From a virus (Duplodnaviria; Caudoviricetes), in the IMG/VR virus record IMGVR_UViG_3300025353_000016, positions 1 to 30,663 of that record: 30,663 nucleotides of DNA, one strand, 5' to 3'. Below the pieces are notes generated by a model that was not told the origin of the DNA, made no database searches, and worked only from the letters and a program-made list of their open reading frames with translations. Below, one piece after another: positions 1,934-25,413 of the stretch (the first letter of the stretch is position 1; each line of letters begins with the position of its first letter). The translations under genes were made by a program, and so were the position numbers.

Positions 1934-4276
1934 ATGTCATTGACACCACCTTCCAGTTTTAGCCCTGTTTTGCGTGGCTCGGCAAGCAACACCGGGCTTA
2001 CGACCACACAAATTGACGGTAACTTTAGCGGTATTGCAACCAACGCCAACTGGAGCGTGTCATCCATAGCAAGCCTAATTTCAAGCGCGGGTGCGGCGCT
2101 GATAGGCATTATCCAAACAGGCGCTGGTGCAGTGGCCAGAAACGTGGCCGCCAAACTGGGCGAAACGGTTTCAATAACCGACTATGGCGCAGTGCCTAGC
2201 ACATCCGGGGCGGCGGCGGCGTTCCTTGCGGCGATGAACAGCCTAGGCAGTACGGGTGGAAAGATCATCATACCTCCCGGTACATGGTTATGGGAATCAC
2301 AGATAACCAGCACCAAGGACTATGTTCATGTTGACGTGCAGGAAGGCGCGGTGGTCACGCAAACCGGCACATTCGCCACCATGCTGTACATCTCCAACAA
2401 CTACTGGGCCATTTCAGGCAATGGCGTGTTTGACGGCGCAAATTTGTCGCCAAGCAACGGGGCAAACATAGCGTGTTGGGGCAACTACTGCTCATTCAGG
2501 AATTTTGAGACACGCAAAAGCGGCGGTCAAGGTCTTGGGCTATGGGGCGCGTCATCCAGCAATTGGCTGACGGGATGCAGTGTCAACAAAGTCAATTCGC
2601 ACAACAATGGCGCGGTCGGTTTGCTGATGTCAGAAGCGCGTTATTGCCGCATCACCTCCAATATCCTGATAAGCAACGGCTTGGAAGGCATCACCGTTGA
2701 CAACCAATCCGGTTACAACACCATTGACGGCAACATAGGGCTAAGCAACTGCACCAGCGGCGGCACGGGCAATATCGGTGCCGGCTTGTTGGCTAACCAT
2801 AACGTGTTCACCAACAACATCCTGCAAGGTGCGCAGAACGGTTGCCACGGCCTGTTTTTGCAAGGCCAAAACAATGTAGTGGAAAACAACGTGTTCACCG
2901 CCAACACAGGTTATGGCCTCTACCTTGACGGCTCTTGTGTCGCAAACCTTGTTGGCTCTAACGAATACGACGCAAACACACTGGGTGCGCGTTACCTTGG
3001 CGTTGGCAGCCTGAACAATATAATCGGGTCTGAATCGCTATCAAGCGGCGGCGTTATGGACTTAGGCGGCAACTTTTACACCTCTCAGCCGATAGATAAC
3101 AAGTTCGGTTTGTGTTACTTAAGGGCCGTTCGGCTTAAACTACAACGCATTGCATTGGGGCTTGCCAGTTACACCAACACATCAAGCATCACCACCACAT
3201 CACAACTGGTGATAGCCTGTATTGGCGACTCCTACACCCAATGGGCAGCCATTTGGACTAGCCCCTTGTTGGGCAAGCTTTGGGGATCATACGGCAACGC
3301 AGGTATGGGATGGTTCGGTTTCGGCTTCCAAACCCCATACAATTCCGCCCCGTGGACGACAGGCAACCAGCCGATATATTCGGGCGGCGGTTCAACATGC
3401 GATCTGGGCGCGTCATGGGGGCTAACGGGCGGCATATCCCTGTTTCAAATCATCGGTTCATGGGTGTGTTCATACAACAACGCCAGCGGCAACGCGCCAT
3501 CCTTGTCCACTATTGCCAGCTCAACTGCAAATGACTATGTGCGTTTGGGATTCCCGGCAAACCAGACAGCCGCCATCCTGTACTATTCGGGCAACGGCAC
3601 GGGCGTTATTGCCGTGTCATGGAACGATGGGTCAACCTATGGCGGCAACATCTCCCTAAGCACAGTGGGCGCGGGGCATATTACACTGAGCGGCATACCC
3701 GGAACTGCCAACACCTTACGCATTAAAGTGGTGTCCGGCACAGTCACACTGGCAGGGATAGACCTGCAAAGCTCGGCCAATGGCGTCAGGCTGCATAAAA
3801 TAGCCGGGGGCGGCTCATATACCCAACAATGGGCCAATGTCACACAAGCGGCATGGGCGGCAAACCTGCAAGCCCTTAACCCTGATGTTGTCACCCTGCT
3901 GTTTGGCGGAAACGAGCAGATCAACGGCTACAGCCCCATGCAATATGGCGTGTACCTGCAAACCATCATAGCCAATATACGTTCGGTATTGCCGGAGTGT
4001 GACATCCTGCTGATTTCCCCGGCGGAAAACCAACGCAACACCAACGCTTACCCTATGACGGCTTTTGCCCAAGTCATGCGTAAAATCGCAACGGACAACG
4101 GTTACTCGTTCATCGACATGCAAGGCTATTTTGGGCTACCCAACAACAACGCCTCGGCCTATGCCTTCACCAATGCCTACTGCCCTTGGTATTACAGCGA
4201 CGGCATCCATCCCGACCCCAATACGGGCGGCGTTATCATGACAGACGCCATTTACCGCGCCTTGGTGACCATGTGA
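1934..4276 (+). CDS. Tailspike/depolymerase: right-handed beta-helix plus C-terminal SGNH esterase (780 aa)
   Basis: N-terminal 'LTTTQIDGNF' anchor-like motif. 'GAVARNVAAKLGETVSITDYGA...GGKIIIPPGTW' is a pectate-lyase-3-like start, followed by Asn/Gly-rich beta-helix rungs. SGNH blocks are GDS (3224-3232), GGNE and DGIHP. Confidence 0.8.
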   Translation: MSLTPPSSFSPVLRGSASNTGLTTTQIDGNFSGIATNANWSVSSIASLISSAGAALIGIIQTGAGAVARNVAAKLGETVSITDYGAVPSTSGAAAAFLAAMNSLGSTGGKIIIPPGTWLWESQITSTKDYVHVDVQEGAVVTQTGTFATMLYISNNYWAISGNGVFDGANLSPSNGANIACWGNYCSFRNFETRKSGGQGLGLWGASSSNWLTGCSVNKVNSHNNGAVGLLMSEARYCRITSNILISNGLEGITVDNQSGYNTIDGNIGLSNCTSGGTGNIGAGLLANHNVFTNNILQGAQNGCHGLFLQGQNNVVENNVFTANTGYGLYLDGSCVANLVGSNEYDANTLGARYLGVGSLNNIIGSESLSSGGVMDLGGNFYTSQPIDNKFGLCYLRAVRLKLQRIALGLASYTNTSSITTTSQLVIACIGDSYTQWAAIWTSPLLGKLWGSYGNAGMGWFGFGFQTPYNSAPWTTGNQPIYSGGGSTCDLGASWGLTGGISLFQIIGSWVCSYNNASGNAPSLSTIASSTANDYVRLGFPANQTAAILYYSGNGTGVIAVSWNDGSTYGGNISLSTVGAGHITLSGIPGTANTLRIKVVSGTVTLAGIDLQSSANGVRLHKIAGGGSYTQQWANVTQAAWAANLQALNPDVVTLLFGGNEQINGYSPMQYGVYLQTIIANIRSVLPECDILLISPAENQRNTNAYPMTAFAQVMRKIATDNGYSFIDMQGYFGLPNNNASAYAFTNAYCPWYYSDGIHPDPNTGGVIMTDAIYRALVTM

Positions 4277-11362: not shown

Positions 11363-14300
11363 ATGGCCATAGACTTAAATTATGCCAGACAAATAAACCC
11401 TAGCCTTTCCGGAAAATCAGACGAAGAGCTGATGCAGGATGCCAGAAGGCGCGGCTATACGGGTGATTTTGTAGGTCTTAAGCCTGAAGAACCCAAACCG
11501 GAAGAAGCGGGGGATTTTAGGAGCTATGTTTCTATACCGATGCTTAAAGGGGTTTCCGATGCCAGCAGCTTGGCTAGCATGGGTCTTAATGCCTTGGGCG
11601 CAGATAAGGTGTCGCATTTATTAGAAGAGTCAAACCGCAGGGTTAATGACACATTGACGGCACGGCAATCGCAAGCCGCGCAAGAGGACGCGCAAAAAAC
11701 GATTGAGGACAAGGACGGGAATTATGGCGGTTACAACTTAGGCACTGCCATACAGGACATATCCGGATCAGTCCCAGGCATGGTGACTATGATGGCCCCG
11801 GGTTATGGTTTGGCGCATGTTGCCACTGGCATGGCAAAAGCGGCAAAGCTTGGCGAAGGCATAGCCAAGATAGCCAGTACGGGCGTGTTGGGCAAAGGCT
11901 TGGCTGAAGGCGTGGCAAGCCATATAAACCCAGCACACATAAGCACGGCGATAGGTTCGGCGGCGGGCTTTTCCGCGTCTGAAGGTATCTACTCGGGCGC
12001 AAGCAATGCCGCGCAAGTGCAGGATGAGATACGTCAAACGCCACTGGACAAGCTTGCCGAACATCCTATGTTCAAGGATGTTTACCATAACGAAACCGAC
12101 AAGAACCTGTCACCGGAAGAACGCCTTTACCAGACACGGGACATCTTGTCTAAAAAGGCCGCCAATGATGTGTTTGCCAAGACGGCAATACGCACGGGGC
12201 TTATCAGCATGGCGACTGGTGGAGGTGCAATGGGCCTGTTGCGTAACAGGGCCGTCAATGGTACAGAAGATGGTTTGTTGAAAACCATAGGCAAAGGCTT
12301 TGCCACAGAAGGATTACAGGAAGGCCTGCAATCGGCATGGGAACAGCGTGTGATGAACGAGGCGCGGCGCGATTATGCCAACCCCAACCAAGACGTGAAT
12401 GAAGGCGTGACCAATGCCGGCATACAGGGCGGTATTGCCGGTGGCGTGATGGGCGCGTCGATGGGTGGTGGTGCGCATTTGTTGCAGCCTAAGAAAACAG
12501 AAGATGCCGGAAAACAGGATGCCGATAATTCAGAAACGCCGCAAAATTCCCAGTCCGGCCATTACAAACCAGTTACGAAAGACACCATTGTTTTTGATGA
12601 CGGCTCACAGATAAATGCACATGAATTTTACCAAGACAGGCTGGCGGAACATGGCGATCCTGTAAAGGCAAAGCGTGAAATGTACATGGCTCTCAACGGC
12701 AATCCCAAGCCCGTGATAGGCATACCGAATTTGATAGCAACCGCTGATGGTACGTTGCATAACCGTAACGAGCTTATCAAAGGCTTTACGGAAAATGGCG
12801 CAAGCGAGCAGGACGGGCTGGACTTTGTTAAAAAAATAATTGAAATACCATTAAAAGAGCGCACCAATAAAATTATTCATGGCATGTATTTTAAAGCGCT
12901 GAACGACGCGCTTATGAAAATAACTTATGCCCCGTCAACATCAGAAAACAACACCAAAACAACTGAAAGCAATGCCGATCATGAAGCAACGCAACGCGCG
13001 AGAGAGAACGGCAAATTTATATTTAAAATAAATCAAGGAACATCAGAAAACAATGCCGAAACAACAAAACCAGCACCTGTTGCGGAAGCAGCTCAAGGAA
13101 GCGCTGGAGAACATAAAGATGCAACGGGAGGCCAAGCGGAATTCACGCCAACGCATGAGCTGAATGACGGGACGCCTGTCATCAAAACAGACGAAAACAC
13201 CTATGTTGACCAGCATGGTGAAGAGTGGAAAGCGGATGATGCGACACCGATTGAACCGGAAAAACCAAAATTGGTTAAGTTCAGGAACAAGGCCAACGGC
13301 ATGTTGGTGCATATCAGCCAAGACGAGTTGGACAGCGGCAAAGACAAGTTGAACGGATATAAGGCAAGGAATGGCGAGCCGTTAAAAATACCCGTGCGCC
13401 GCGAAGATTTAGTGCCTGAAGAAACCAATAACCCCTCTAACGAGGCCACCACAACCACGGAGAACACCGATGAAAAAGCAAAAAGCACCAGCGAAAGCGC
13501 CGATGCCAGCGAAGGGCAAAAAGGATCGCTGCTGATGGATGCCGCGCCGGTTCAGGCTGGCGCGGAAACCAAGCCTGTTGACGCACAAGCACAAGCCCTG
13601 TTTGACATATATTTGAAGGATGGCCCCAATACTGCACATGGATATTACAACAAGATCGTTAAAGAAAAAAAGCTGTCAAAAGCGGCGGCGGCAATATTGC
13701 ATGAAAAATTTGTTGATTTAGTTAACAAAAACAGAAAGGAGTATGAGCATAATGGCACACGCATTTATGACGATGCGCGGGGTATAAAGCATTATGTTGA
13801 GACAAGCGAAAATAGGGAAAGGCGTTTAAAAGGCGAGCATGGTATTGGTGGAGATGCTGTTTTTTTTAACCTTTATGAAGCAAGGAAATATGCAGACCAA
13901 CAAAATGCGGAAGAAGCGGAAGCATCCAAGCGCAAAAAAGAACAGGATAAAAAACAGGCGGAACAGGACAAAAAAGACGCTGAGAAAAAAGCCGAGATGC
14001 AGGACATCGACGGGTTTGGTGAAAACCTTAAGCCGCATGTCAAGGCTACCGTTGTAAAACGGCTTTCTGAGCGCATGAACATTGGCGGTGTAACCGACAC
14101 ACTAAAAAACCATGTAAAGCGATTGGTTGACAATGGCGCAACAACGCAAGTGCATGAAGAACACAAAATAAAAGACAAGTCACGCAATGAACGGAATCGC
14201 ATGACAAATGAGGAACAGGACGAGTTCAACAAGAAACAAAAATTAGCTGGCGTAAAACACAATTACACCGTAGGGGATATTAATCTGGGAAAAATAGCCT

Positions 14301-17300
14301 ATGACTATGCCAACCACCTGATAGCCAAAAAACAGGCTGAAACCAAGCCAGTTGACATAAAACCGGAAACCAAACCCAACAATGAGCCTGTCATTATGGG
14401 GCAAGACAAGCCACATGAGCTTACAGAAAAAGAAAAGTTGGATGCAGAACTGGATGATGTGCTTAGCGAACTTGGCGATTACTTTAGGGATTTGAACTCA
14501 TTTAAAGCCGTTCCTGAACATGATGATGTCAAGCTGTTCCCTATCATGGTTAAGCTGATAGATGTGGCGATCATGAAAGGTTATTACCAATTTAAGGATG
14601 CAGCAAAGTATGCGCTGGACATTATCCGCGCAAAGTTTGGCAATGACGCGGCTGATTCGATACAAATAGAGCAATTGCATGGTGCATATATTGCAGTCCA
14701 TAAAAAATATCTTGGATTGGGCGCAAATAAGCCCAGTGATGTTCTTGGCGTAGAACATATTGATGAAATCAATAAACATAAGGCTGTAAACCATAGCGAA
14801 AAACCTAAGCCAAAAGAAAATATAATTGAAAATAAGCCAGGATCATTGAATGAAAAAACAGGAAATGAAAAAAACAAAACAGAAACCACCGGAATCAATG
14901 ATGGCGATCACACTGGAAACACGCTATCAGAAAATAATATAGGCGAAATTATCAGGAAATTGGCTCATCCTATAGCCGAAACATTCATTGGCATGGGGCA
15001 TTTAAAAGCCAGTGAGATGTTGAATAGGCTGGCAAAGGAAAACCATTTGACGGGCGATGCCATAGAAAAATTAAAAGCGCGTGTCAATTATTTGGTGAAT
15101 ACGGAAAAATCCAAAATCATTGTTGGTAATCGTTTTGGGCTTCCTATTTTTGAAGGAAAAAATCTGGTTGCGTGGATAAATGGTTTTATAAACAAAGGGA
15201 ATATGTCGTTCCCGTCCGATGAAATCATAAAAATAGCAAGAAAGAAACGCCTGAAAGGAAAAACAAAGCTGTACCGTGTAAAAACCAACAATGAAAATGA
15301 TGGTCGATTGCAGTTATGGACAAAAAGCAAAGAACAAGCCGATGCTTGGGCGGAAAAGTCGAAAGGCGAAGTCATAGAAAAGACGTTTGTTCCAAGCCAG
15401 TCATTGTTAGATTATTCAAGGATTGACAAAAAACGAAATGAAGTCATTGTCATTTATGGTTCGGCAAAAAATTATATTAATGATGTTGGCAAGATAAACA
15501 CGGATGCCACTCACAACGTGGACGCAAATGACAGTAGCAAACTTGCAGCGAAAAATGCATTTGATAAGGATTCGGACATTGCTATGGGAATTCCAACATT
15601 CAAAGGCAACAAACGCACCATGTTAAGCATGGCTGTCAATGCACTGAATGCACTTGCCCATAGGCTGGACATTACCCATATTGATGATTGGTTTGGTGGC
15701 GGCGGCATGTGGAGTACGTCATTGGCGAACGCAGTGCTGCCCAACGTGAAAACCATCCGCATAGGCGATCTTAACCCGCTGCGCATCAAGCGCATCGAAT
15801 GGATGCATGAAAGGGGAGACAAGTTTTATGAGGATTTGAAGCGCACCGGCGCATTGGACGTGTACCGTAAACTGCTGGAAGAGTTCAGGCTCAACAAGGT
15901 CACGGTTAAGGAAGATGGTGTTGATGTGCAAAAGTCAAAACCCATCGTGTCGCCATCCGCATTGGCGGATATCGTTGACGCGCTGGAGGGTACGGGTAAG
16001 ATTATAAATGCTGCTAGCATTAGAGCATGGACATCAGGCGCGGACAAGTTATCCGAAGAAGGCAAAGTTTTACTATCGGCACTGGGCGACCTCGCCTTCA
16101 ACAACCGGCGCTTAAAAATACACGAACCCTCAAACATGGTGCTGCCAGACGGCACGGTTGCCGATCAGTTTTTGGCAAAAGTCATCACCGAAATGGCCGC
16201 AGCGCACAAACAGGCGCAAGTATTCAAAAAGCGTGGCGGAAGTTATGAATACCTGCCAGCCGCAAGCAGTTACGACACAGTCGCCAGCAAAGGCATTAAG
16301 GGCAAGCACGTGCTATCGTTGGTAGACCCCCCTTACTACAACACCACCGGCTACAAAGGAACGGACGATTTTTCCACGGGCGACAAATGGAACGCTGAAG
16401 GCTACCAAAAAACATATGATTTGCTGAAAACGCTCGTTGCCAACGAAAACCACATCCTCTACACTGACGAAGCCTGGTGGCGAAAAACCGATCAATTGGG
16501 CGATGTGCAACAGGCAAACGGTATCCTTAAAAACATCAATGACTTAATCAGCCATCTAAAGGTGGCCCCTAACAAAATAGGCGATCGATATGAGCAACTT
16601 GGAATCCATGACCCCAACACCGGAAGGCGCAGCAATGATGGCGGCAATAGCGGCGAAGTTTACGCAAGAGGAGGCTCTAAAGGAACTGACGGACAACGAA
16701 ATGAACATAGTGTACTTCATTCCGAAGGAACACTGGCCGGACGGACTGGAAGCGAAAGTGGAAGCCCTGCTGAATCGGTAGAAAATAAAGGGGGGCAAAG
16801 CGATGTCTTTAACCCCCTGTTCAGCAAGTCTCAAAAAGTGGCGAACCCGCACGGCACGGCAAGCTTGCGTGAGGCTTTGTCACGCGCGATGGACAGGGTG
16901 TTTGGTGCGGGTTGGTTCGGCAGGCTGGAGGCGACGGGCAAGTTTAAGGTTATCAGCCGTGCTGATGCGGTAAAACTTATCGGAAATCATATTAAGCCGA
17001 GTTTTGCTGGCGAATCGGCTATTGGCGCGGACACAAAAGCGTTAGAAAAAGCCAAGGCATTGTTGGCGCAAGGTTTAAGCCGTGATGCCATACATGATGA
17101 GACGGGTTGGTTTTATGGTGCTGACAAGCAGTGGCGTTATGAGATAGGGGATGAGGGCGCGTCATTAAAAATGCCTATTGACCAGTTGGAAGAGTCTAAG
17201 AATTTTCAACCAGATATTCCTTATCGGTTGGGTGATGTTGTCGATCACCCCAAGCTGTTTTCCGCTTACCCACATTTGGCGGACATTCCTTTGGTAAAAC

Positions 17301-20300
17301 GCAGTGGGATGTTTGATTTTGGCGGATTGCAAGGGTGGTTTGGTGATAATGGGATAGGCATCACGCCTTATGTGAAAGATGCCCTTAGTACAATACTGCA
17401 TGAATTGACACATGCTGTACAAAAACATGAAAAATGGGCGTCAGGTGGTAATGCTGATTCTGTCATAAATAATTTACCAGAGCATGAAATTATGGCTTTG
17501 GTAAAAAAAGCATTTGACAATGCAAGTAAAAATTTACAAGAAACTACACGGATAGTTGATACATTAGAATTTTTAAAGAAAAATCCAGTTGCTGAAAATT
17601 TCATTAAAACGGAAGAAATAGCAGCAAAGGCTGGTCGTGAATGGCGTGATAAAGGTCGGAAAAGTAATGATAAATATGATATTGCCTACACAGATGCATT
17701 AGAAGCGGAAAAAAATGCCGAGAAAAAATTAACCGAAGAATTAATAAAATATGATGATAGTTATAAGCATTTTGGAAAGCTTTATGAAATTAAGAAAGCA
17801 TTACGAGCTGGTATTGATGAATCGTTAAAAAAATATTTAAACATTTTTTTAACAGAAACAGAAGATGTGCTTGGCATACAAACAGGCGATAAAAATGTAA
17901 TTAAAAAATATGTGGACACAAATGGGCTTTACAAACGGTTAGCGGGTGAAACCGAAGCCCGTAATGTGCAATCACGCATGAGGATGACGGAAAAAGAACG
18001 GGGCGAATCTAAACCGTGGGAAACCCAAGAATACCCTGACGCTGAACAATTCGTGCTTAGGGAAAGCCAGCCTGACATGCTGTACAGCAAGAACGGTGAT
18101 GTGGTGGCGTTCTACAACCCGAAGGACGACACGACTTATTTTGTGGCGGACAACATCAGCAAACACGCCACGGACAGCCATTTGTTGGGCTTGGTGCTGC
18201 ATGAGGTGGGTGTCCATGCCCTGAACATGGGTAAGAACAATTCTGATTTCAGGCTGTTGCTGAGACGCTTTGAGGGGATGCAGAAGAACAACCCGGCCGT
18301 TAAGGCGGCGTTTGCACGGGCGAAAGAAGCGGGTACGCCTGACGAACACATGACAGAAGAGGCATTGGCGTATTTCTTGGAGGCGAACCCGAAGGCTAAC
18401 CTTGCACAACGGGTGATGGAGATGTTCCGGCAGTTTGTGCGGGCTATCGGCAACACGCTGAAGGGCATGGACAAGTTGAAGTTCATGAAGTGGGCGAATG
18501 CGCTGACGGAGCAGGAGCTTCGCAATATGGCAATGAAGGCGTTGCGCGGCGCACCGGACAGTTTGCAGTTCGACAATGCGGGGAGGCAGTCGGGTAATGC
18601 AATGGCAACCGAACCGGCGGCAAGGTTCTATTCGTCTTTGAAGCGGGCGATTGGGAGCGCGCCGGCTAAGGTGTTCGGCAATGCCAACCAAGTGAAGTTG
18701 TGGCTGGCGGGGAACTCGGCTAAGTTTGATGTGAAAAAGGATGAGATTTACTGGAGCGGCATCAATGACTGGCTTGACATGCAGGATAAGGTGACACGGG
18801 GAGATGTGGAAGCTTTCTTGGCGGCTAATGGGGTTAGGGTTGAGGATGTGGTGCTGGGCAGAAAGTTCGGCGACCTTAGCAAGGAAGAAATGAATAGGTT
18901 TGACTATTTGTTGGCTAAATCAGAAGAAGATAGGACAGTAGATGAAGAGAACGAACTTCGTATACTTTCAGAAAAGCATTGGGACACATCAAAATACAAC
19001 ATGGAAAAACTGACATTGCTCGGTGGAAAGGATTACAAAGAGCTGGTGGTGACAATCCCCACGGTTGAGAAGTATAACGAGGATGACAGCTACCATTTTG
19101 GCGATGTGGGCAAAGGCAAACAGATTGCTTGGCTGAGGCTTAACACGCGCACCGATGGGCAAGGGCGCAGGGTGTTGTTCTTGGAGGAAGTGCAAAGCCA
19201 GCGCGGGGCGGATGGGCGGAAAAATGGGTTTGTATCGCCTATGACGGATGCTGAAATTAAACAAAGGGGTGATGGTGTCCATCCTGCACCGTTCATTACC
19301 GATGCCAACAACAAGGCCACGAATGCCTATATCAGCCTGTTGATGAAGAAGGCAATCAGTGAAGCCATTGACAACGGGCAGGGGGTAGTGGCTTGGACGA
19401 CGGGCGGGCAACAGGCAGACAGGTATAATTTGAGCAAGCATTTCGATTCTGTCATGTACAAAGAATCGAATGGCAGGTTGATGGCGTTTAATGGTTCGTC
19501 TACCGTGATTAAAAAAAACGGTGTCCGCCCTGATGAACTTGCCGGTTATTTGGGCAATGAAATTGCCGACAAGCTGCTTAATTCGCCATTGAACCAAGAG
19601 GGGGCGCACCATATTGAAGGGGATGATTTAAAAACCCAACCGGCTTGGACACAGGCCATGTACGGTGACGGGAACGGCATGAACGTGCAGGGCAAGCCGT
19701 CTTTGGTGATGCAGGCGGCGATGGAGATTGCCCGCAGGATGGGCGGCATGGTGGGTAGTGTGGACATTGGGCATGGGATGCAGCCAGCCTTGATTATCAC
19801 GCCCAAGATGCGGCAGAAGGTGCTGGATGAGGGGATGCCGTTGTTTGCCAAGTCTGCCAATATCAACCAACACCTAGCCCCGAACGGCGAGCCTTCCAAC
19901 CTGAATGCGGAAAGCGACACGGGGGCGTTTTCTGCTGAGGACAACGACATCCGTTACAGCAAGCTGTCTGATTCGATGGCTAACCTTGCCGAGGCGGCGA
20001 CGGGCTTCATTGAAAACCGCAAGGACAATCCGAAGGTGTTCAACCTATGGCATAGGACGGTGGGCTCTCAGCCGCACAAGGCGACGGTGGATGAGCATTA
20101 CAAGGCGGTGGTGGATAAGTCGATGGATTACGAGGAGGACGCGGCGCGGTTCATGAACGAGCAGGCGGACGAAGCCCCGTTGTGGTTGCCGAAGCTTGAC
20201 ACGCTGGGCGACACGGCAAACGAGCTGGTGAAGCGCAGGGCGTGGAAGCGGCTGAAGGATGCCAAGGCAGTCAGTAAGGCCATTTTTGACACGACGCTGA

Positions 20301-22528
20301 ATGACAAGCCGATGACGGATGCGGAACTGGTGCGTGACGGTTATACGCCCATGCAGGTGGCGATGTACCACCAGTTTTTTGCGGCGGTGAACCGGAGCAT
20401 GGATGACTTGGCAAAGTCGGAGATGTTCCGCATGGGGCGGGTGATGAAGCTGTTGCCTGCCAGCCGTGACATGGATTTGATGGATACCGCACACCACTAT
20501 GCCAGTCAAGTGGCGGATGCCGAGAAAGCGGCGGCTTTCATGGCTAAGGCGGCAACCATCCTGAAGCTGCAAAAGCAGGGCTACGCGCCGTTGATGCGGT
20601 TCGGCAGGTACACGTTGGATGTCAAGGAAACGTTGCCCGGTGGCGATGAAAAGCGGGTGTTTTTCGGCATGTTTGAAACGGTGTCGGAAATGAACCAGAT
20701 GGCGCGGGCGTTCCGTGAAACAGACCCGAACTACACCGTGACAACTGGAACAATGTCGCAAAAAAGCTGGAAGCTGTTCAGTGGCGTGACACCGGAAACG
20801 ATGGAGGTGTTTGCCAACATGATGGGCGTTGAGCAGGACAAGGCGTTTCAGGAATATTTGAAGATGGCGGTAAACAACCGTTCGGCCTTGAAGCGGCTGA
20901 TACACCGCAAGAAAATGCCGGGGTTTTCGCAAGACGCACAACGGGTGTTGGCCTCGTTCATTCAAAGCAATGCCAAGATGTCAGCCAAGAACATGCACCT
21001 TGGCGATATGGTGCAAGCCATTTCTGCCATACCCAAGGAAAAGGGTGATGTGATAGATGAGGCGATGGACTTGTACGACTATGTGCAGAACCCGTCAGAT
21101 CAGGGCGCGGGCATACGCAATGTGCTGTTTGCGTGGTATTTGGGCGGTTCGGTGGCTTCTGCGATGGTAAACCTGACACAAACCTTAACCACCACCAGCC
21201 CGTATTTGTTGCAGTACGGAAATACAAAACAAGTGGGTGCTATCCTGTCCAAGGCGATGAGGCTGGCGGCGCAAAGAACAGGTGACATAGGCGGCGAATT
21301 GGGCGCGGCACTGAAGCTGGCGGACGAGGAAGGCATCACCGCACCACACGAAACGCACATGATGGCGAGCGAGTCACGGCGCACGGGCGGCATGTTGCAG
21401 TCGCAAATGCTGAGGCCGCTGACTAAGGCTTGGGGTTCGCTGTTTTCGCTGGCTGAGGCGTATAACCGCAAGGTGGCGTTCATAGCCGCCTACCAGTTGG
21501 CGAAAGCCACCAACAAGCCGGATGCGTTCGGGTTTGCGCGGCAAGCGGTGAACGACACGCAATTTGTCTACAACAAGACGGCGCGGCCCAATTGGTCACG
21601 CGGTACGGTGGGTTCGATGCTGTTCACGTTCAAGACGTTCACGGTTAATTACATTGAGTTTTTGGTGCGTTTGCCGCCAAAAGAGCGGGTTATTGCCTTG
21701 GGTGTGCTGTTGGTGCTGTCCGGTTTGGGCGGTATGCCCGGTGCGGACGATGCGGACGATGTGATAGACACATTGGGGCAGTCGTTGGGTTACAACACAA
21801 ACGCAAAGGAATGGAAAGAAGATGTGCTGTCAGACATGTTCGGAAAGACAATAGCCGATGCGGCCTTGCATGGCGTGTCCGCCGGATTGCCGTTTGATGT
21901 GTCGCAACGGTTGGGCGTGGGTAATGTGTTCCCCGCCACCGGACTGCTGAAGCGTTCCGAAACTGACAAGACAAGGCAGGTGATGGAACTGGCGGGGCCG
22001 GTGGGTGGCTTGCTGGAAAAAGGCATCGACGCATGGGGCGCGGCACAAACCCGCAAAGACGCGGCACACAAAGCCGCCGCCATGCTTAAGGCAGGTATGC
22101 CCAAGGCGTTTGCAGACGCTTGGCAAGCGTTGGATATGCTGAACACGGGGCAATACAGCGACGCACGGGGTCGCAAGGTGGCGGACACCAATGGCATTGA
22201 TGCGTTGTCCAAGTTCTTGGGATTCCAGCCCACTGATGTGGCGGAAAAACGCCGTGAGGACAGGTACAAAAATCAAGCGGTGCAGCTTACTAAAGCGGTG
22301 GAGGGCGACATTGCCTCGCTATGGGCGGCTGGCATGAACGAGAAAAAGCTTGAGAAAGTGCAGGAAGCCAAGGATTTGCTGAAAGACTGGAACGAAAAGA
22401 ACCCTGAAACGCCTATCAGGATTAGCCATTCGCAAATTGTCCGGCGGGTTAAGCAAATGAAGATGACGGCGCACCAAAGGCTGTTAAAATCCACGCCAAA
22501 AGAGCTGCGTAACTTTGTGGGCGGTTAA
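11363..22528 (+). CDS. Giant polyvalent virion/ejection protein (3721 aa) with Dam-like N6-MTase, LPD23-like region, two zincin-type peptidase motifs, PLxRFG and LPD39-like C-terminus
   Basis: Uninterrupted ORF. Motifs: FKGNK, DWFGGGG (within 15683-15706), GDLN, DPPY (16325-16336); 'TGWFYGADKQWRYEIGD'; HELTH (17399-17413); HEVGVH (18200-18217); GYAPLMRFG (PLMRFG at 20588-20605); 'WYLGGSVASAMVNLTQ'. Confidence 0.85.
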   Translation: MAIDLNYARQINPSLSGKSDEELMQDARRRGYTGDFVGLKPEEPKPEEAGDFRSYVSIPMLKGVSDASSLASMGLNALGADKVSHLLEESNRRVNDTLTARQSQAAQEDAQKTIEDKDGNYGGYNLGTAIQDISGSVPGMVTMMAPGYGLAHVATGMAKAAKLGEGIAKIASTGVLGKGLAEGVASHINPAHISTAIGSAAGFSASEGIYSGASNAAQVQDEIRQTPLDKLAEHPMFKDVYHNETDKNLSPEERLYQTRDILSKKAANDVFAKTAIRTGLISMATGGGAMGLLRNRAVNGTEDGLLKTIGKGFATEGLQEGLQSAWEQRVMNEARRDYANPNQDVNEGVTNAGIQGGIAGGVMGASMGGGAHLLQPKKTEDAGKQDADNSETPQNSQSGHYKPVTKDTIVFDDGSQINAHEFYQDRLAEHGDPVKAKREMYMALNGNPKPVIGIPNLIATADGTLHNRNELIKGFTENGASEQDGLDFVKKIIEIPLKERTNKIIHGMYFKALNDALMKITYAPSTSENNTKTTESNADHEATQRARENGKFIFKINQGTSENNAETTKPAPVAEAAQGSAGEHKDATGGQAEFTPTHELNDGTPVIKTDENTYVDQHGEEWKADDATPIEPEKPKLVKFRNKANGMLVHISQDELDSGKDKLNGYKARNGEPLKIPVRREDLVPEETNNPSNEATTTTENTDEKAKSTSESADASEGQKGSLLMDAAPVQAGAETKPVDAQAQALFDIYLKDGPNTAHGYYNKIVKEKKLSKAAAAILHEKFVDLVNKNRKEYEHNGTRIYDDARGIKHYVETSENRERRLKGEHGIGGDAVFFNLYEARKYADQQNAEEAEASKRKKEQDKKQAEQDKKDAEKKAEMQDIDGFGENLKPHVKATVVKRLSERMNIGGVTDTLKNHVKRLVDNGATTQVHEEHKIKDKSRNERNRMTNEEQDEFNKKQKLAGVKHNYTVGDINLGKIAYDYANHLIAKKQAETKPVDIKPETKPNNEPVIMGQDKPHELTEKEKLDAELDDVLSELGDYFRDLNSFKAVPEHDDVKLFPIMVKLIDVAIMKGYYQFKDAAKYALDIIRAKFGNDAADSIQIEQLHGAYIAVHKKYLGLGANKPSDVLGVEHIDEINKHKAVNHSEKPKPKENIIENKPGSLNEKTGNEKNKTETTGINDGDHTGNTLSENNIGEIIRKLAHPIAETFIGMGHLKASEMLNRLAKENHLTGDAIEKLKARVNYLVNTEKSKIIVGNRFGLPIFEGKNLVAWINGFINKGNMSFPSDEIIKIARKKRLKGKTKLYRVKTNNENDGRLQLWTKSKEQADAWAEKSKGEVIEKTFVPSQSLLDYSRIDKKRNEVIVIYGSAKNYINDVGKINTDATHNVDANDSSKLAAKNAFDKDSDIAMGIPTFKGNKRTMLSMAVNALNALAHRLDITHIDDWFGGGGMWSTSLANAVLPNVKTIRIGDLNPLRIKRIEWMHERGDKFYEDLKRTGALDVYRKLLEEFRLNKVTVKEDGVDVQKSKPIVSPSALADIVDALEGTGKIINAASIRAWTSGADKLSEEGKVLLSALGDLAFNNRRLKIHEPSNMVLPDGTVADQFLAKVITEMAAAHKQAQVFKKRGGSYEYLPAASSYDTVASKGIKGKHVLSLVDPPYYNTTGYKGTDDFSTGDKWNAEGYQKTYDLLKTLVANENHILYTDEAWWRKTDQLGDVQQANGILKNINDLISHLKVAPNKIGDRYEQLGIHDPNTGRRSNDGGNSGEVYARGGSKGTDGQRNEHSVLHSEGTLAGRTGSESGSPAESVENKGGQSDVFNPLFSKSQKVANPHGTASLREALSRAMDRVFGAGWFGRLEATGKFKVISRADAVKLIGNHIKPSFAGESAIGADTKALEKAKALLAQGLSRDAIHDETGWFYGADKQWRYEIGDEGASLKMPIDQLEESKNFQPDIPYRLGDVVDHPKLFSAYPHLADIPLVKRSGMFDFGGLQGWFGDNGIGITPYVKDALSTILHELTHAVQKHEKWASGGNADSVINNLPEHEIMALVKKAFDNASKNLQETTRIVDTLEFLKKNPVAENFIKTEEIAAKAGREWRDKGRKSNDKYDIAYTDALEAEKNAEKKLTEELIKYDDSYKHFGKLYEIKKALRAGIDESLKKYLNIFLTETEDVLGIQTGDKNVIKKYVDTNGLYKRLAGETEARNVQSRMRMTEKERGESKPWETQEYPDAEQFVLRESQPDMLYSKNGDVVAFYNPKDDTTYFVADNISKHATDSHLLGLVLHEVGVHALNMGKNNSDFRLLLRRFEGMQKNNPAVKAAFARAKEAGTPDEHMTEEALAYFLEANPKANLAQRVMEMFRQFVRAIGNTLKGMDKLKFMKWANALTEQELRNMAMKALRGAPDSLQFDNAGRQSGNAMATEPAARFYSSLKRAIGSAPAKVFGNANQVKLWLAGNSAKFDVKKDEIYWSGINDWLDMQDKVTRGDVEAFLAANGVRVEDVVLGRKFGDLSKEEMNRFDYLLAKSEEDRTVDEENELRILSEKHWDTSKYNMEKLTLLGGKDYKELVVTIPTVEKYNEDDSYHFGDVGKGKQIAWLRLNTRTDGQGRRVLFLEEVQSQRGADGRKNGFVSPMTDAEIKQRGDGVHPAPFITDANNKATNAYISLLMKKAISEAIDNGQGVVAWTTGGQQADRYNLSKHFDSVMYKESNGRLMAFNGSSTVIKKNGVRPDELAGYLGNEIADKLLNSPLNQEGAHHIEGDDLKTQPAWTQAMYGDGNGMNVQGKPSLVMQAAMEIARRMGGMVGSVDIGHGMQPALIITPKMRQKVLDEGMPLFAKSANINQHLAPNGEPSNLNAESDTGAFSAEDNDIRYSKLSDSMANLAEAATGFIENRKDNPKVFNLWHRTVGSQPHKATVDEHYKAVVDKSMDYEEDAARFMNEQADEAPLWLPKLDTLGDTANELVKRRAWKRLKDAKAVSKAIFDTTLNDKPMTDAELVRDGYTPMQVAMYHQFFAAVNRSMDDLAKSEMFRMGRVMKLLPASRDMDLMDTAHHYASQVADAEKAAAFMAKAATILKLQKQGYAPLMRFGRYTLDVKETLPGGDEKRVFFGMFETVSEMNQMARAFRETDPNYTVTTGTMSQKSWKLFSGVTPETMEVFANMMGVEQDKAFQEYLKMAVNNRSALKRLIHRKKMPGFSQDAQRVLASFIQSNAKMSAKNMHLGDMVQAISAIPKEKGDVIDEAMDLYDYVQNPSDQGAGIRNVLFAWYLGGSVASAMVNLTQTLTTTSPYLLQYGNTKQVGAILSKAMRLAAQRTGDIGGELGAALKLADEEGITAPHETHMMASESRRTGGMLQSQMLRPLTKAWGSLFSLAEAYNRKVAFIAAYQLAKATNKPDAFGFARQAVNDTQFVYNKTARPNWSRGTVGSMLFTFKTFTVNYIEFLVRLPPKERVIALGVLLVLSGLGGMPGADDADDVIDTLGQSLGYNTNAKEWKEDVLSDMFGKTIADAALHGVSAGLPFDVSQRLGVGNVFPATGLLKRSETDKTRQVMELAGPVGGLLEKGIDAWGAAQTRKDAAHKAAAMLKAGMPKAFADAWQALDMLNTGQYSDARGRKVADTNGIDALSKFLGFQPTDVAEKRREDRYKNQAVQLTKAVEGDIASLWAAGMNEKKLEKVQEAKDLLKDWNEKNPETPIRISHSQIVRRVKQMKMTAHQRLLKSTPKELRNFVGG
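13470..13535 (+). CDS. Candidate nested +1-frame basic peptide MKKQKAPAKAPMPAKGKKDRC
   Basis: GGAG at 13459-13462 with a 7-nt spacer. It lies in a low-complexity linker of the giant gene. Confidence 0.4.
   Translation: MKKQKAPAKAPMPAKGKKDRC
16590..16781 (+). CDS. Candidate nested +1-frame gene (63 aa) overprinted on the linker after the MTase domain
   Basis: The sequence is globular-looking and amphipathic with gene-like codons, while the host frame is a G/S/R/E-rich linker. AGG lies 8 nt upstream. Confidence 0.55.
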   Translation: MSNLESMTPTPEGAAMMAAIAAKFTQEEALKELTDNEMNIVYFIPKEHWPDGLEAKVEALLNR

Positions 22529-23211
22529 TCGCCTACTGTGGCGTTGTGCCATGCCCTGATATGTTCGCTGGGCTTTTTGCGTAGTTCCATCCTCAGCAGT
22601 CGGTTAACATCCGCTGCGCCGTATGTTGCGTGATAGTCGGATTCCGGATTGCTTCTGTTCAGGTTGGTTTCAATCTGGCGGGTGAATTCTGATTGCTTCG
22701 CCTTGTTAAACGGGTATTGCAACCGTGCTATCCGCTTGGCTCTTAGGGCGGCCGGGAAAAAATAGTGGGTGTTTTTGGAAACATCAAGCCCCAACGTTTG
22801 CGCCGCGCTCAACCGCGCCTCTTTTCGCATTAGGGTTTCGGGTGGGTTAGGTTTAACGGCTTGTCTCATGCCGTAGGGCAACAGGGTGTAATAACATCTT
22901 TGGTTGTATTCATCCAATGCTAAAACAAGTTCAGTCAATGTCCATTTTTTTGAACGTTCTTCTAACCACTTACTAAGATAGTTTATTTCTATGCACAAGT
23001 CGTCCCTGAATTTAAGTGACAGGCTGTCGATGTGTTTATCCTGAACTTTCGGGTTGATGTAATGGGCAAGTTTTGCGGCCTTTTCAGGTGTGATTTTTTT
23101 ATTTCTCGCCCAGTAATCCCAATCTATCAAGCCGCCCAAGCCGCCATTGATTAAACACTCTTTAACGCCGCTGACTTCTTCCGGCTTTCCATCAGGCAGC
23201 AAATTGTTCAT
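22525..23211 (-). CDS. Convergent accessory (moron-like) hypothetical protein (228 aa)
   Basis: This is the only long ORF in the gap, and its stop shares TTAA with the giant gene's stop. 'IDWDYWARNKKITPEKAAKLAHYINP' resembles a motif in uncharacterised prophage proteins. Confidence 0.7.
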   Translation of the reverse strand: MNNLLPDGKPEEVSGVKECLINGGLGGLIDWDYWARNKKITPEKAAKLAHYINPKVQDKHIDSLSLKFRDDLCIEINYLSKWLEERSKKWTLTELVLALDEYNQRCYYTLLPYGMRQAVKPNPPETLMRKEARLSAAQTLGLDVSKNTHYFFPAALRAKRIARLQYPFNKAKQSEFTRQIETNLNRSNPESDYHATYGAADVNRLLRMELRKKPSEHIRAWHNATVGD

Positions 23212-23462: not shown

Positions 23463-23650
23463 ACCATGACAGCTTTTTTGGGTGGGCATCCACGGCAATC
23501 GTTTCTGGGTGGTTGGTGCTAATTGACCACACCGAACATTTTTTGACCACCAACGGGCAGCTAATAGCGTTGGTCTGCACGATTATCAGCTCAAGCTGCA
23601 CCTTCCTTAATTATAGGATAAATGCAAAACGCATGGAAGGTGAAAAATGA
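23459..23650 (+). CDS. Small holin-like membrane protein (63 aa; start 23459 preferred over 23399)
   Basis: Two hydrophobic segments and a charged C-terminal tail 'NYRINAKRMEGEK'. ATGA coupling at both ends. Confidence 0.55.
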   Translation: MNHDSFFGWASTAIVSGWLVLIDHTEHFLTTNGQLIALVCTIISSSCTFLNYRINAKRMEGEK

Positions 23651-25413
23651 CTGTTCCTTTCAAGTTTGCATCTTGCAATACTGCCAGTACGTCACATCTT
23701 GATGATAATTTTTCCTATTTTGACAAAATAGCACAAAAAAATTATGCCTCGCTCGATTTGGCTTTTGCCGATGCGGCATTAGGCAATATTTCACTCAATT
23801 CAAACGTCACTATTGCCGGTGAAATATATAACTATTACGGCAAATATTTCAAGGACACCAGCGGCAAGTATTACTTCAACTACCTGCCCAGCTTTGCCGT
23901 CGTGGGCGCGTCTATGGGGGCGCACGGCAGCACCAGCTACGGGTTTAGCGGCACATATACAGGCACATACAGCGTTCCGATTGTGGGTTCAAAATCGGCA
24001 ACCTTTACGTTCAGCATTTCAGGCCAAACCACCAGCGTTCCCAACGTGTCAATAGGCCAGCGCATTTACATGGGCGGTGCAAGCCAATCCGAATTTAACG
24101 GCTGTTTCGTGGTCACAGGCATAACATCCGGCACGGTACAATATGACACCATAACATTTACCCTAGCCAAACCGGCCACCGTGACAACGCCAACTTCTGT
24201 AAGCGCTAACGTGTTTATTACTATGTACGCCATGCAGCAGGTCAACGACCTGAATTTCTGGTGTGTGGGCGAGGCGATTGCATCGGCGGCGCGTGGCTCA
24301 AAAGTGATGCGTTACCTTGGAAATTACAGTGTGACGGGTTCGACATCCGCCATGCATACAACATTTGTGGCGGACGCGCTAAACCCCGCCAACAACGACT
24401 ATGGGCTTGTCCCTGATTTCGTCATGCTCGATACGGGCGGCAACGATGTTTTAAGTTTGGCGACCTTCACGCCCGCAGGCGTAGCCGCTTTGTTGGCTAC
24501 CATGAAAACCAACGTGACGGTTTTGATAAACATGATTATTGCGGCGGGTTCAATACCGGTTGTCGGAAGCTTGCCCCCGTTTGCGCACACCGCCGGTTCA
24601 TACAATATGGCTATGAGGGTGTTAGGCGAGCAGTTTAACCAATGGTTGGCGTATCTTGCGAACCAAAACACTATCATTTTTAACAACACCAACCCGTCAT
24701 TAACCGACCAGACAAGCTCTTATCTCGATTATGTCAGCACCTATTCTTTTGATGGAATCCATCCCGTCAAATTGGGCGCTTATGTCATGGGGAAAACCAC
24801 CGCCACCAACCTATTTGCCAACATCATAGGCAAGGACACACGATTGGGGGCGGACATATCGCCCAACCCACAATTCCTGGTCACATCGGGCGGCACATTG
24901 TCCGGGGCGACAGGTGCGGCGGTGGGCGGTGTCACTTTAACGGGCGGCAACACCGCAACCGTTGTGGGCGCAGTCAATGGCATAGCCAACAACGGTTCGG
25001 GAATTGGGCAAAACATAGCGTTCACCGCATCGGCAACAAGTGACTGGGTGGGCTTGTCCGCCCAATTGTCCGGCAGTGTTACGGCAGGAGACAAGATTTA
25101 TTTTCAGGTAAAAATACACCAGCTTGACGCGGCGGCGGTTGCCAACCTTCAAGCCGTTGTGGTTGCCATTTTCTGCACGGTCAACGGCATAGCACAAAGC
25201 ATATCCCTGCCAGCCATAAGCGCCAGCATCAACACGCTAAACAACGGCGATTTCCCAAACCCGATAGATTTCCTGTTTGAAACGCCGCTGTACGTTGTAC
25301 CCGCAAACACCACATCACTACAACCGTTTGTCCGTTTCATTGCCGCAGGTATCATGACAACAGCCAATCTGGTGATAAGCAATTTTGTCGTCAAGAAATG
25401 GACGGGGAACTGA
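23647..25413 (+). CDS. Tail-associated SGNH esterase with beta-sandwich C-terminus (588 aa)
   Basis: N-terminal 'MTVPFKFA...SHLDDNF' anchor-like motif. SGNH blocks are VVGAS (Ser at 23911-23913), GST, DTGGND and DGIHP (24751-24765). Confidence 0.75.
   Translation: MTVPFKFASCNTASTSHLDDNFSYFDKIAQKNYASLDLAFADAALGNISLNSNVTIAGEIYNYYGKYFKDTSGKYYFNYLPSFAVVGASMGAHGSTSYGFSGTYTGTYSVPIVGSKSATFTFSISGQTTSVPNVSIGQRIYMGGASQSEFNGCFVVTGITSGTVQYDTITFTLAKPATVTTPTSVSANVFITMYAMQQVNDLNFWCVGEAIASAARGSKVMRYLGNYSVTGSTSAMHTTFVADALNPANNDYGLVPDFVMLDTGGNDVLSLATFTPAGVAALLATMKTNVTVLINMIIAAGSIPVVGSLPPFAHTAGSYNMAMRVLGEQFNQWLAYLANQNTIIFNNTNPSLTDQTSSYLDYVSTYSFDGIHPVKLGAYVMGKTTATNLFANIIGKDTRLGADISPNPQFLVTSGGTLSGATGAAVGGVTLTGGNTATVVGAVNGIANNGSGIGQNIAFTASATSDWVGLSAQLSGSVTAGDKIYFQVKIHQLDAAAVANLQAVVVAIFCTVNGIAQSISLPAISASINTLNNGDFPNPIDFLFETPLYVVPANTTSLQPFVRFIAAGIMTTANLVISNFVVKKWTGN

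What the first reader, a model, noticed from the sequence alone, without database searches (positions are those of the whole stretch)
16590..16781. Protein-like 63-aa gene overprinted in the +1 frame directly after the methyltransferase domain
Seen: just as the MTase ends, the giant protein turns into a G/S/R/E linker (HDPNTGRRSNDGGNSGEV...). The +1 frame there reads MSNLESMTPTPEGAAMMAAIAAKFTQEEALKELTDNEMNIVYFIPKEHWPDGLEAKVEALLNR*, with amphipathic helices, an aromatic core and ordinary codons (GCG, CTG, GAA, CCG). The ORF starts and stops within or at the edges of the linker. Inference: the linker is the off-frame shadow of a real nested gene, which may be a partner, inhibitor or chaperone that travels with the MTase cassette.
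Basis: partly seen in the sequence, partly recalled or inferred. Interest (0 to 1): 0.82.

Follow-up and report, generated by a model that had tools for sequence, protein, structure and literature searches.

The report
Hidden gene riding a phage methylase
A small protein gene sits in a shifted reading frame right behind the DNA-methylase-like domain of a giant phage protein, recurs at that spot in 26 of 28 related loci and also stands alone in bacterial genomes, and its product likely binds and restrains the methylase.

Summary
Confirmed. The +1 ORF at 16590-16781 is very likely a real gene (about 95%). It starts in the last strand of a Dam/DpnM-fold adenine methyltransferase domain inside a 3,721-aa phage protein. 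An ATG-started +1 ORF follows this methyltransferase in 26 of 28 distinct loci (1.3 expected), although the flanking host proteins differ. Selection acts on the +1 frame: pooled pN/pS is 0.70 against 1.20 for the linker, and one paralogue pair shows 21 silent and 5 replacement changes against 1 and 24. The acidic helical product has an invariant Trp and matches no Pfam, PHROG, NCBIfam or PADLOC family. Eight free-standing copies lie in seven bacterial genomes where no such methyltransferase was found; two loci adjoin type I restriction genes, and two copies keep a remnant of the methyltransferase end. Best reading (45%, untested): a cognate inhibitor or chaperone of the virion-delivered methyltransferase, kept by hosts as orphan immunity. 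Main rival: an independent anti-defence or defence factor. Co-folding was unavailable and no expression data were listed. This scan has noted similar hidden genes on other DNA, beside DarB-type methyltransferase-helicases; no sequence look-alike of this one was found there.

The parts
11363..22528 (+). Host gene: 3,721-aa multidomain (polyvalent-type) phage protein in the virion gene block; virion packaging and injection are inferred
   Evidence: ORF; LPD23 at aa 1880-1936, E 1e-17; C-terminal match to DarB-like phrog_10089, E 9e-34; upstream genes match SU10 adaptor and virion-protein families
15560..16618 (+). Dam/DpnM-fold N6-adenine methyltransferase-like domain (aa about 1400-1752); activity and target untested
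   Evidence: AlphaFold model pLDDT 85.5; best Foldseek matches EcoDam E 6e-6, DpnM 4e-5, T4Dam 3e-4; conserved GxK, DxFxGxG, DPPY, YTDxAW; no match to a methyltransferase family in Pfam, NCBIfam or PADLOC
15686..15706 (+). AdoMet-binding motif DWFGGGG
   Evidence: sequence; conserved columns D43 F45 G47 G49
16325..16336 (+). Catalytic motif DPPY
   Evidence: sequence; present in 26 of 27 rows of A5, DPPNY in L037
16578..16589 (+). In-frame (+1) TAG three codons before the start, and a weak Shine-Dalgarno-like AGG 8 nt before the ATG, written in the Ile-Gly codons of the methyltransferase end
   Evidence: sequence; AGGT or AGGA at this place in L002, L003, L012, L013, L031; SD-like 4-mers in 20 of 26 loci against 146 of 831 other +1 ATGs; the window's own AGG did not meet that pattern
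16590..16781 (+). Nested gene, +1 frame, 63 aa, net charge -6, helical (H11-23, H26-32, H35-43, H53-61)
   Evidence: (pLDDT 87.5)
16734..16736 (+). Invariant Trp49 codon of the nested gene
   Evidence: Trp in 26 of 27 nested ORFs while the main-frame residue varies (GTG 15, CTG 8, ATG 3); Trp in 37 of 37 rows of A6, which omits the one exception L035
16619..16790 (+). Main-frame G/R/S-rich linker, the off-frame shadow of the nested gene
   Evidence: pooled pN/pS 1.20; a profile of 20 other linkers does not find it
17000..17170 (+). LPD23 domain of the host protein, downstream of the cassette; not part of the cassette in most relatives

Best explanation
This is a two-part mobile cassette inside giant phage proteins: a Dam-fold methyltransferase domain in the main frame, and behind it, in the +1 frame, a conserved gene for a small acidic helical protein that likely binds that methyltransferase and holds it inactive or folded in the cell that builds the virions. 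Shown: the ORF, its recurrence behind the methyltransferase in unrelated host proteins, selection on the +1 frame rather than on the linker, conserved start signals, and free-standing copies. Predicted: the two folds. Inferred: ribosomes initiate internally on the late mRNA, so the partner is made whenever the giant protein is; the giant protein is packaged and injected without the partner, so the methyltransferase acts on incoming phage DNA and shields it from restriction. Nesting lets the pair move as one in-frame module without breaking the host gene. Bacteria that keep the small gene alone would hold orphan immunity: blocking the injected methyltransferase would leave phage DNA open to restriction. 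I put the gene being real at about 0.95; the confidence below is for the partner mechanism.
For: Linkage: 26 of 28 distinct methyltransferase loci (23-100% identity) have an ATG +1 ORF of 55 codons or more starting 0-18 codons from the last-strand anchor, against 1.3 expected. The flanks fall into 14 unrelated groups upstream (24 loci) and 14 downstream (28 loci). Homology without circularity: a profile of 20 nested ORFs from outside the window's clade ranks this ORF first of 546 six-frame segments (E 1.2e-5; next 1.2), and a profile of their main-frame linkers finds nothing. Selection: 86 of 375 changed codons are silent in +1 against 35 of 380 in the main frame, P 3e-7; pN/pS 0.70 against 1.20, with 0.40 for the methyltransferase and 1.07 for its own +1 shadow; L009/L015 20:12 against 3:25; L057/L058 21:5 against 1:24. 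Partner-like anatomy (inference): net negative in 26 of 28, and a helix at residues 14-22 that is hydrophobic in 26-35 of 37 rows at seven of nine positions. Orphans: 8 copies in 7 genomes with no match to this methyltransferase. L059 and the first L063 copy keep the methyltransferase's last codons. Two loci adjoin type I restriction genes, and three lie next to or within a few kb of recombinases. Precedents: phage DNA-modifying enzymes are harmful to the host and tightly controlled (PMC3299994, passages); orphan immunity genes occur in recombinase-linked arrays (10.1101/471110, abstract and opening).
Against: The small gene stays intact and under purifying selection where the methyltransferase is damaged or gone: L058 has lost about 630 nt including DPPY, L037 has DPPNY and no recognisable N-terminal half, and the free-standing copies give pN/pS 0.33-0.71 against their nearest nested copies. 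A strictly cognate partner might be expected to decay there. One copy is fused to the C-terminus of RsfS, far from any methyltransferase (L074, E 3e-5). Two methyltransferase loci lack the ORF by my criterion: L038 has none, and L022 has a later 73-codon ORF that the profile does not match. The selection signal is uneven: 2 of 9 pairs have +1 pN/pS above 1, the window against its 96% relative L012 shows 0 silent and 6 replacement changes, and all-against-all the +1 frame outscores the main frame in only 177 of 300 pairs, with mean identity 0.26 against 0.29. Methyltransferase activity, its target and virion packaging are untested. Five of the 7 orphan loci have no restriction gene next to them in the stretch fetched, and those genomes may be incomplete.
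Confidence: 0.45

Rival explanations
1. The small protein is a real but independent conflict factor, for example an acidic inhibitor of host restriction or a superinfection-exclusion protein. It rides with the methyltransferase because both serve anti-restriction and because the methyltransferase's last codons supply its start signal.
For: It persists and stays under selection without the methyltransferase. It is small and acidic. It occurs in integrative and defence islands, as tandem doubles (L072, P0019) and fused to RsfS. Small phage proteins that bind restriction enzymes (Ocr, ArdA) are described in PMC5512222 (passage).
Against: In every nested case with upstream sequence it follows this one methyltransferase family, and no other domain of the window's giant carries such an ORF. 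A restriction inhibitor is hard to square with retention beside the host's own type I genes. Orphans are only mildly acidic (-1 to -7). No PADLOC or PHROG match.
Confidence: 0.3
2. It is an assembly chaperone or adaptor for the giant protein as a whole, helping folding or loading into the capsid, and not a regulator of methylation.
For: It would be co-expressed with a virion-block gene, and it has a strongly hydrophobic first helix.
Against: It tracks the methyltransferase across unrelated host proteins of about 670 to several thousand residues, and is kept in bacterial islands with no giant gene.
Confidence: 0.1
3. It is a degenerate XRE-type helix-turn-helix regulator, like the controller proteins of restriction-modification systems, and controls expression of the methyltransferase.
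For: The top structural rows are XRE-type domains: CapH-N Z 5.3 (rmsd 2.8, 55 aligned), C.AhdI Z 5.2 (3.5, 57), HipB Z 5.2 (4.1, 62); Aca1 at E 1.3.
Against: All Z scores are under 8, which the tool treats as a common arrangement for helical bundles. The helix 26-32 that makes the window's model look like a helix-turn-helix is an insertion: positions 27-30 are gaps in 33-34 of 37 rows. The would-be recognition helix has conserved acidic, not basic, residues. The gene lies at the 3' end of an internal domain.
Confidence: 0.07
4. The ORF is not separately initiated but is an alternative C-terminus reached by +1 frameshifting at the end of the methyltransferase, giving a shortened giant protein.
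For: It begins exactly at the domain end; in 12 of 26 loci the +1 frame is open for more than 5 codons upstream of the ATG.
Against: A stop lies within 5 codons upstream of the ATG in 14 of 26 loci, 3 codons in the window. ATG and SD-like signals are conserved. Free-standing copies have their own starts. I saw no shared slippery sequence, but did not search for one formally.
Confidence: 0.04
5. It is an untranslated by-product of linker composition, inherited with the linker.
For: The window/L012 pair shows no silent excess in +1. G/R/S-rich linkers leave the +1 frame open more easily. The loci are related, so they are not 26 independent trials.
Against. Copies survive where the host frame has stops (2 each in L064, L072, L073, L074). 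Relatives of 59-88 aa were called as separate genes in public collections.
Confidence: 0.04

Closest known systems
Same-strand nested genes: comS within srfA of Bacillus subtilis and GndA within gnd of E. coli (PMC11230408, passages seen); lambda Rz1 within Rz (recalled, no call)
   Same: A small protein gene wholly inside a larger gene in another frame, with its own start; comS sits in a giant gene.
   Different: Here the nested gene has taken over the DNA: the host frame is an unconstrained linker. It moves with one domain between unrelated host genes and also exists free-standing. No sequence relation was found.
Polyvalent proteins and the DarB methylase-helicase dyad (PMC5512222; section 14 read whole, other passages seen)
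   Same: Giant multidomain phage protein with LPD23 and an adenine methyltransferase, proposed there to be injected and to protect incoming DNA.
   Different: That paper's methylases are mostly gamma-class NPP(Y/F) enzymes fused to LPD36 and a SWI2/SNF2 helicase. This one has DPPY, motif I before motif IV and a Dam/DpnM fold, and no helicase or LPD36 was found in the window's giant. The main text has no occurrence of 'overlap'; its supplementary files were not seen.
Dam/DpnM/T4Dam adenine methyltransferases
   Same: Predicted fold and motif order.
   Different: Only 11-16% identity, TM-score about 0.4 by query length, a divergent recognition region, and embedded in a larger protein. The eight stand-alone Dam-like genes fetched as weak hits simply end in a stop.
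Phage Mu com-mom and FluMu com-hin1523 (PMC3299994, passages seen)
   Same: A small phage gene coupled to a DNA-modifying enzyme whose expression harms the host.
   Different: Com is a four-cysteine zinc-finger translational activator; this protein has no cysteine, lies at the 3' end of the enzyme domain and is nested.
Orphan immunity arrays, AID and rAID (10.1101/471110, abstract and opening seen)
   Same: Small partner genes kept without their enzyme, on mobile elements, some beside recombinases.
   Different: Those neutralise type VI secretion toxins and were tested. Here the target would be a phage-delivered methyltransferase, and neutralisation is untested.

Membership tests
Nested (same-strand, out-of-frame) protein-coding gene | Open frame with start and stop inside a longer ORF, conserved in relatives | tested here: met
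   26 of 28 loci against 1.3 expected; the 0-18 codon and 55-codon limits were set after seeing the loci
Nested (same-strand, out-of-frame) protein-coding gene | Purifying selection in the nested frame | tested here: met
   not seen in the window/L012 pair or in 2 of 9 pooled pairs
Nested (same-strand, out-of-frame) protein-coding gene | Translation shown by peptide or ribosome profiling | not testable with these tools
   no RNA holder was listed, and reads would not show translation
Dam/DpnM-type N6-adenine methyltransferase (host domain) | Motif order GxK, FxGxG, then DPPY, on a Dam-like fold | tested here: met
Dam/DpnM-type N6-adenine methyltransferase (host domain) | Methylates DNA adenine; GATC specificity | not testable with these tools
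   GATC is under-represented in the window (70 against 153 expected), as are GGCC and GACC, so this says nothing on the target
DarB methylase-helicase dyad | Gamma-class NPP(Y/F) methylase fused to LPD36 and a SWI2/SNF2 helicase | tested here: not met
   motif is DPPY after FxGxG; Pfam scan of the giant gives only LPD23; definition from PMC5512222 section 14
TnpV (PF14198), named for other hidden genes in this scan's notes | Match to the Pfam profile | tested here: not met
   0 of 27 nested proteins match it at E 0.05
XRE helix-turn-helix / R-M controller proteins | Helix-turn-helix fold | tested here: inconclusive
   Z up to 5.3, rmsd 2.8, 55 aligned; Foldseek E 1.3 or worse
XRE helix-turn-helix / R-M controller proteins | Conserved two-helix motif with a basic or polar recognition helix, and an HTH profile match | tested here: not met
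   positions 27-30 are gaps in 33-34 of 37 rows and helix 35-43 is acidic; no HTH family in 27 scans
Com (Mu com-mom) | Four-cysteine zinc finger | tested here: not met
   no cysteine in the 63 aa; definition from PMC3299994
Immunity / cognate inhibitor proteins | Encoded directly behind the cognate enzyme domain, with orphan copies elsewhere | tested here: met
Immunity / cognate inhibitor proteins | Binds and neutralises the enzyme | not tested

The most novel reading that the evidence does not exclude
Giant injected phage proteins carry enzyme-plus-inhibitor modules in which the inhibitor gene is written into the interdomain linker, and bacteria steal that hidden gene as orphan immunity: it disarms the phage's injected methyltransferase so that neighbouring restriction systems can cut the incoming DNA.
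Probability: 0.2. Interest if true: 0.92.

Novelty: new variant of a known kind. Interest (0 to 1): 0.74.

Why it matters
Linkers of giant phage proteins are usually read as filler; here the linker is the coding sequence of another gene, which gene callers will tend to drop wherever the host ORF is intact. The locus offers a complete, small test system (a 353-aa domain and a 63-aa protein) for how a phage keeps a packaged DNA-modifying enzyme in check. It also shows an overlapping gene leaving its host gene: two free-standing copies still carry the methyltransferase's last codons. If the protein inhibits the methyltransferase, it is a new protein inhibitor of Dam-fold enzymes and a candidate defence factor. 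With the scan's unchecked notes on other methyltransferase linkers, it suggests a recurring design, not a single oddity.

Tried and rejected
Searches that found nothing for the 63-aa protein: word-index homologue search; single-protein scan of viral contigs; ESM Atlas for it and for the L027 copy; Pfam, PHROGs, NCBIfam and PADLOC; PDB sequence profiles, whose best hits (calmodulin E 0.05, a designed protein E 0.085, Cas9 E 0.3) I treat as chance; Foldseek against PDB and BFVD, no match at E 0.001. Two of the 9 hits (P0015, ankyrin/NACHT; P0016, ricin-B lectin repeats) were dropped as chance. Three methyltransferase queries found nothing in 50,697 annotated phage records and one found nothing in plasmids, so no cultured, annotated example was available. 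No RNA holder was listed; this is no evidence. Co-folding with the methyltransferase was not available, so binding stays open. Profile searches gave no new place in 401 genomes of the class of G003, 171 of its family (where G003's own copy also fell below the cut-off with A6) or 55 of the order of G1045. A promoter-like site at 16437-16465 (9 of 12; 6 sites found against 1.8 +/- 1.3) is too weak to use. A second ATG at 16608 was rejected as the main start because L002, L003 and L013 lack it. Other +1 ORFs of the giant (12006, 13164, 13839, 19905, 21564) score as shadows. Nine literature searches showed no paper on a gene nested behind a methyltransferase domain of a giant phage protein; one search returned only irrelevant papers, and subscription journals are largely missing.
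Full report
Observation. The window is a 30,663-base virus record holding a virion gene block, a 3,721-aa ORF at 11363-22528 and a holin. Under a codon model from 14 other genes of the window it is the only one of 15 long +1 segments of the giant that looks coding, and the main-frame stretch over it is the least gene-like 50-codon window of the giant (-0.19 bits/codon, median 0.38). A second model that included the giant ranked it first of 31 off-frame ORFs in 15 genes and the only positive one.

The host domain. Residues about 1400-1752 (15560-16618) match no methyltransferase profile in Pfam, NCBIfam or PADLOC. Their model (16-row alignment, pLDDT 85.5) matches EcoDam (E 6e-6), DpnM and T4Dam, and GxK, DxFxGxG, DPPY and a last strand R-x-E-x-L-G are conserved. 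This is a Dam-fold enzyme, not the gamma-class methylase-helicase of DarB described in PMC5512222 (section 14 read whole). Activity and target are untested. The nested ATG lies inside that last strand. The closest genome hit (94%, L030) is titled a Methylococcaceae bin, so a methanotroph host is likely but inferred.

Recurrence. Methyltransferase searches of viral, metagenome and genome contigs gave 28 distinct loci, the window included, with sequence past the domain end. Left out before counting: L001, L005 and L030 (end too early); duplicates or near-duplicates (L006, L007, L008, L011, L012, L014, L016, L017, L023, L024, L029, L046, L048, L049); and nine weak hits, eight of them stand-alone Dam-like genes ending in a stop and one another methylase. 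In 26 of 28, an ATG +1 ORF of 55 codons or more starts 0-18 codons from the last-strand anchor; 1.3 are expected from other positions of the same host ORFs. I set those limits after reading the loci, and the loci are related, so this is not 26 independent trials. The misses are L038 (no ORF) and L022 (the script took a wrong anchor there; read by hand it is still a miss, with a 73-codon ORF some 40 codons later that the profile does not match). The 300 residues on either side fall into 14 unrelated groups upstream (24 loci) and 14 downstream (28 loci), so the methyltransferase and the hidden ORF move together between host genes.

Which frame is selected. In nine disjoint pairs, differences in the overlap fall most on main-frame position 1, the wobble of the +1 frame (229, 209, 170 of 562), the reverse of the methyltransferase just upstream (172, 129, 314 of 675). 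Silent changes are 86 of 375 in +1 and 35 of 380 in the main frame (P 3e-7). Pooled pN/pS is 0.70 for +1, 1.20 for the linker, 0.40 for the methyltransferase and 1.07 for its own +1 shadow. Two paralogues in genome G002 differ at 6, 0 and 22 sites by +1 codon position, 21 silent to 5 replacement in +1 and 1 to 24 in the main frame. A profile of 20 nested ORFs from outside the window's clade finds this ORF first of 546 segments (E 1.2e-5); the matching linker profile finds nothing. Trp49 is kept in 26 of 27 while the main-frame residue varies among Val, Leu and Met, always with G in the third place. Against: the window and L012 (96%) show 0 silent and 6 replacement changes in +1; two of the nine pairs have +1 pN/pS above 1; all-against-all the +1 frame scores higher in only 177 of 300 pairs and has lower mean identity (0.26 against 0.29), which the linker's low complexity may inflate.

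Initiation. SD-like 4-mers precede the start in 20 of 26 loci against 146 of 831 other +1 ATGs. Part of this comes from the conserved glycine codon and from my choice of starts, and the window's own AGG is weak. A +1 stop lies within five codons upstream in 14 of 26 loci, which argues against a frameshift product. Translation is not shown.

The protein. The model has four helices (pLDDT 87.5, 10 rows). Across 37 rows the conserved core is a hydrophobic helix at 14-22, L-[TP]-[DP]-x-E, then P-x-x-x-W-P-x-x-L-x-x-K. It is net acidic in 26 of 28 (median -6). No family library matched. Structural rows are XRE-type helix-turn-helix domains at Z up to 5.3, but the helix that gives this look is an insertion of the window's subgroup and the would-be recognition helix is acidic. 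Seven of the nine hits and the nine (three shared) are public gene calls of this family, mostly 59-88 aa; P0019 holds two copies.

The reverse test. Searching genomes with the small-protein profile recovered six known nested places and ten new ones. One follows an internally deleted methyltransferase (L058), one lies at a contig end in a giant-type frame with its 5' end replaced (L062), and eight are free-standing in seven genomes: L059, two in L063, L064, L065, L072, L073, L074. One genome is of the family of G001 and six are of the family or class of G005, whose locus is titled Kiritimatiellae. None of the seven gave a match to the methyltransferase profile, while controls G005 and G002 did; they may be incomplete. 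L059 and the first L063 copy keep the methyltransferase's last codons, which shows the direction nested to free for those two. The host frame has two stops over L064, L072, L073 and L074, and pN/pS against the nearest nested copy is 0.33-0.71 (protein-guided alignment favours low values). L072 lies divergently next to hsdM-hsdS-AbiP2-like RT-PDC-M24-hsdR, a few kb from a tyrosine-recombinase-like gene. The L063 copies follow a type I hsdR with unknown genes between. L059 and L073 follow serine recombinases, L065 is near tRNA-Tyr, L064 near a WYL gene, and L074 is fused behind RsfS.

How it most likely works. Shown: a conserved, selected nested gene tied to one methyltransferase family, with orphans. 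Inferred: internal initiation makes the small protein whenever the giant is made; it binds the methyltransferase and keeps it quiet or folded until the giant is packaged; the injected enzyme then methylates the incoming genome; hosts that keep the gene alone could block that step. This follows the logic of strictly controlled phage modification enzymes (PMC3299994, passages) and of orphan immunity arrays (10.1101/471110, abstract and opening). I give it 0.45. The main rival, an independent anti-defence or defence factor (0.30), explains the survival of the gene beside broken or missing methyltransferases (L037, L058, orphans) at least as well, but not its fixed place behind this domain.

Comparison and novelty. 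Nested same-strand genes are known (comS, GndA; PMC11230408, passages; Rz1 recalled), and so are polyvalent proteins with methylases. Nine searches (listings only, apart from the four papers named) showed no report of a gene nested behind a methyltransferase domain in such proteins. The supplements of PMC5512222 were not seen and may list this methyltransferase family. The scan's own unchecked notes describe hidden genes beside DarB-type methyltransferase-helicases on other DNA, one with free-standing relatives near defence systems. Look-ups by the sequence of this protein and of this methyltransferase found no look-alike there, and this family is not TnpV. Verdict: a real, new small-protein family in a new variant of a known arrangement; interest 0.74.

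Noticed in passing
L058 (G002:C320), minus strand: Paralogue of L057 whose methyltransferase has lost about 630 nt including DPPY, in frame, while the nested ORF keeps its ATG and 80 of 85 residues; its stop is changed, so the ORF runs on.
   Followed up: yes
L074:128-682 minus (G1231:C2): The small domain is fused to the C-terminus of the ribosome silencing factor RsfS, downstream of nadD; it may be an accident of an insertion or a recruited module.
   Followed up: partly
L059 (G223:C54), minus strand; proteins P0013, P0021, P0022: A copy 91% identical to the L002 nested protein is in frame with an upstream membrane-protein-like ORF, after a large serine recombinase; the 213-aa gene call may be a fusion of two genes.
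   Followed up: partly
L075:8788-17796 (G1045:C24): Defence island next to the double-domain orphan: type I hsdM, hsdS, AbiP2-like reverse transcriptase, PDC-M24 A/B, hsdR.
   Followed up: partly
L022:4205-4426: A 73-codon +1 ORF with a GGGAG upstream, starting about 40 codons after the methyltransferase end and holding a Trp near its end; not matched by the family profile, possibly a diverged or replacement nested gene.
   Followed up: partly
L067:2908-5577: Two orphan copies alternate with genes of no known family behind hsdR; a 190-nt, 78% repeat covers the 3' part of both copies.
   Followed up: partly
window 22525-23211, minus strand: A 228-aa gene on the opposite strand, convergent with the giant and overlapping its stop by 4 bases; no Pfam or PHROG match.
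   Followed up: no
window 17363-17960 and 14660-15560: Low-GC patches inside the giant gene (31-39% against about 50%), on both sides of the cassette region, suggesting recently swapped domains.
   Followed up: no
window 1934-4276 and 23647-25413: Two GDSL/SGNH hydrolase-domain proteins, the first with a beta-helix, probably tail-associated.
   Followed up: no
whole window: GGCC, GACC/GGTC, GATC and CTAG occur at 37-51% of expectation, as under restriction pressure.
   Followed up: no
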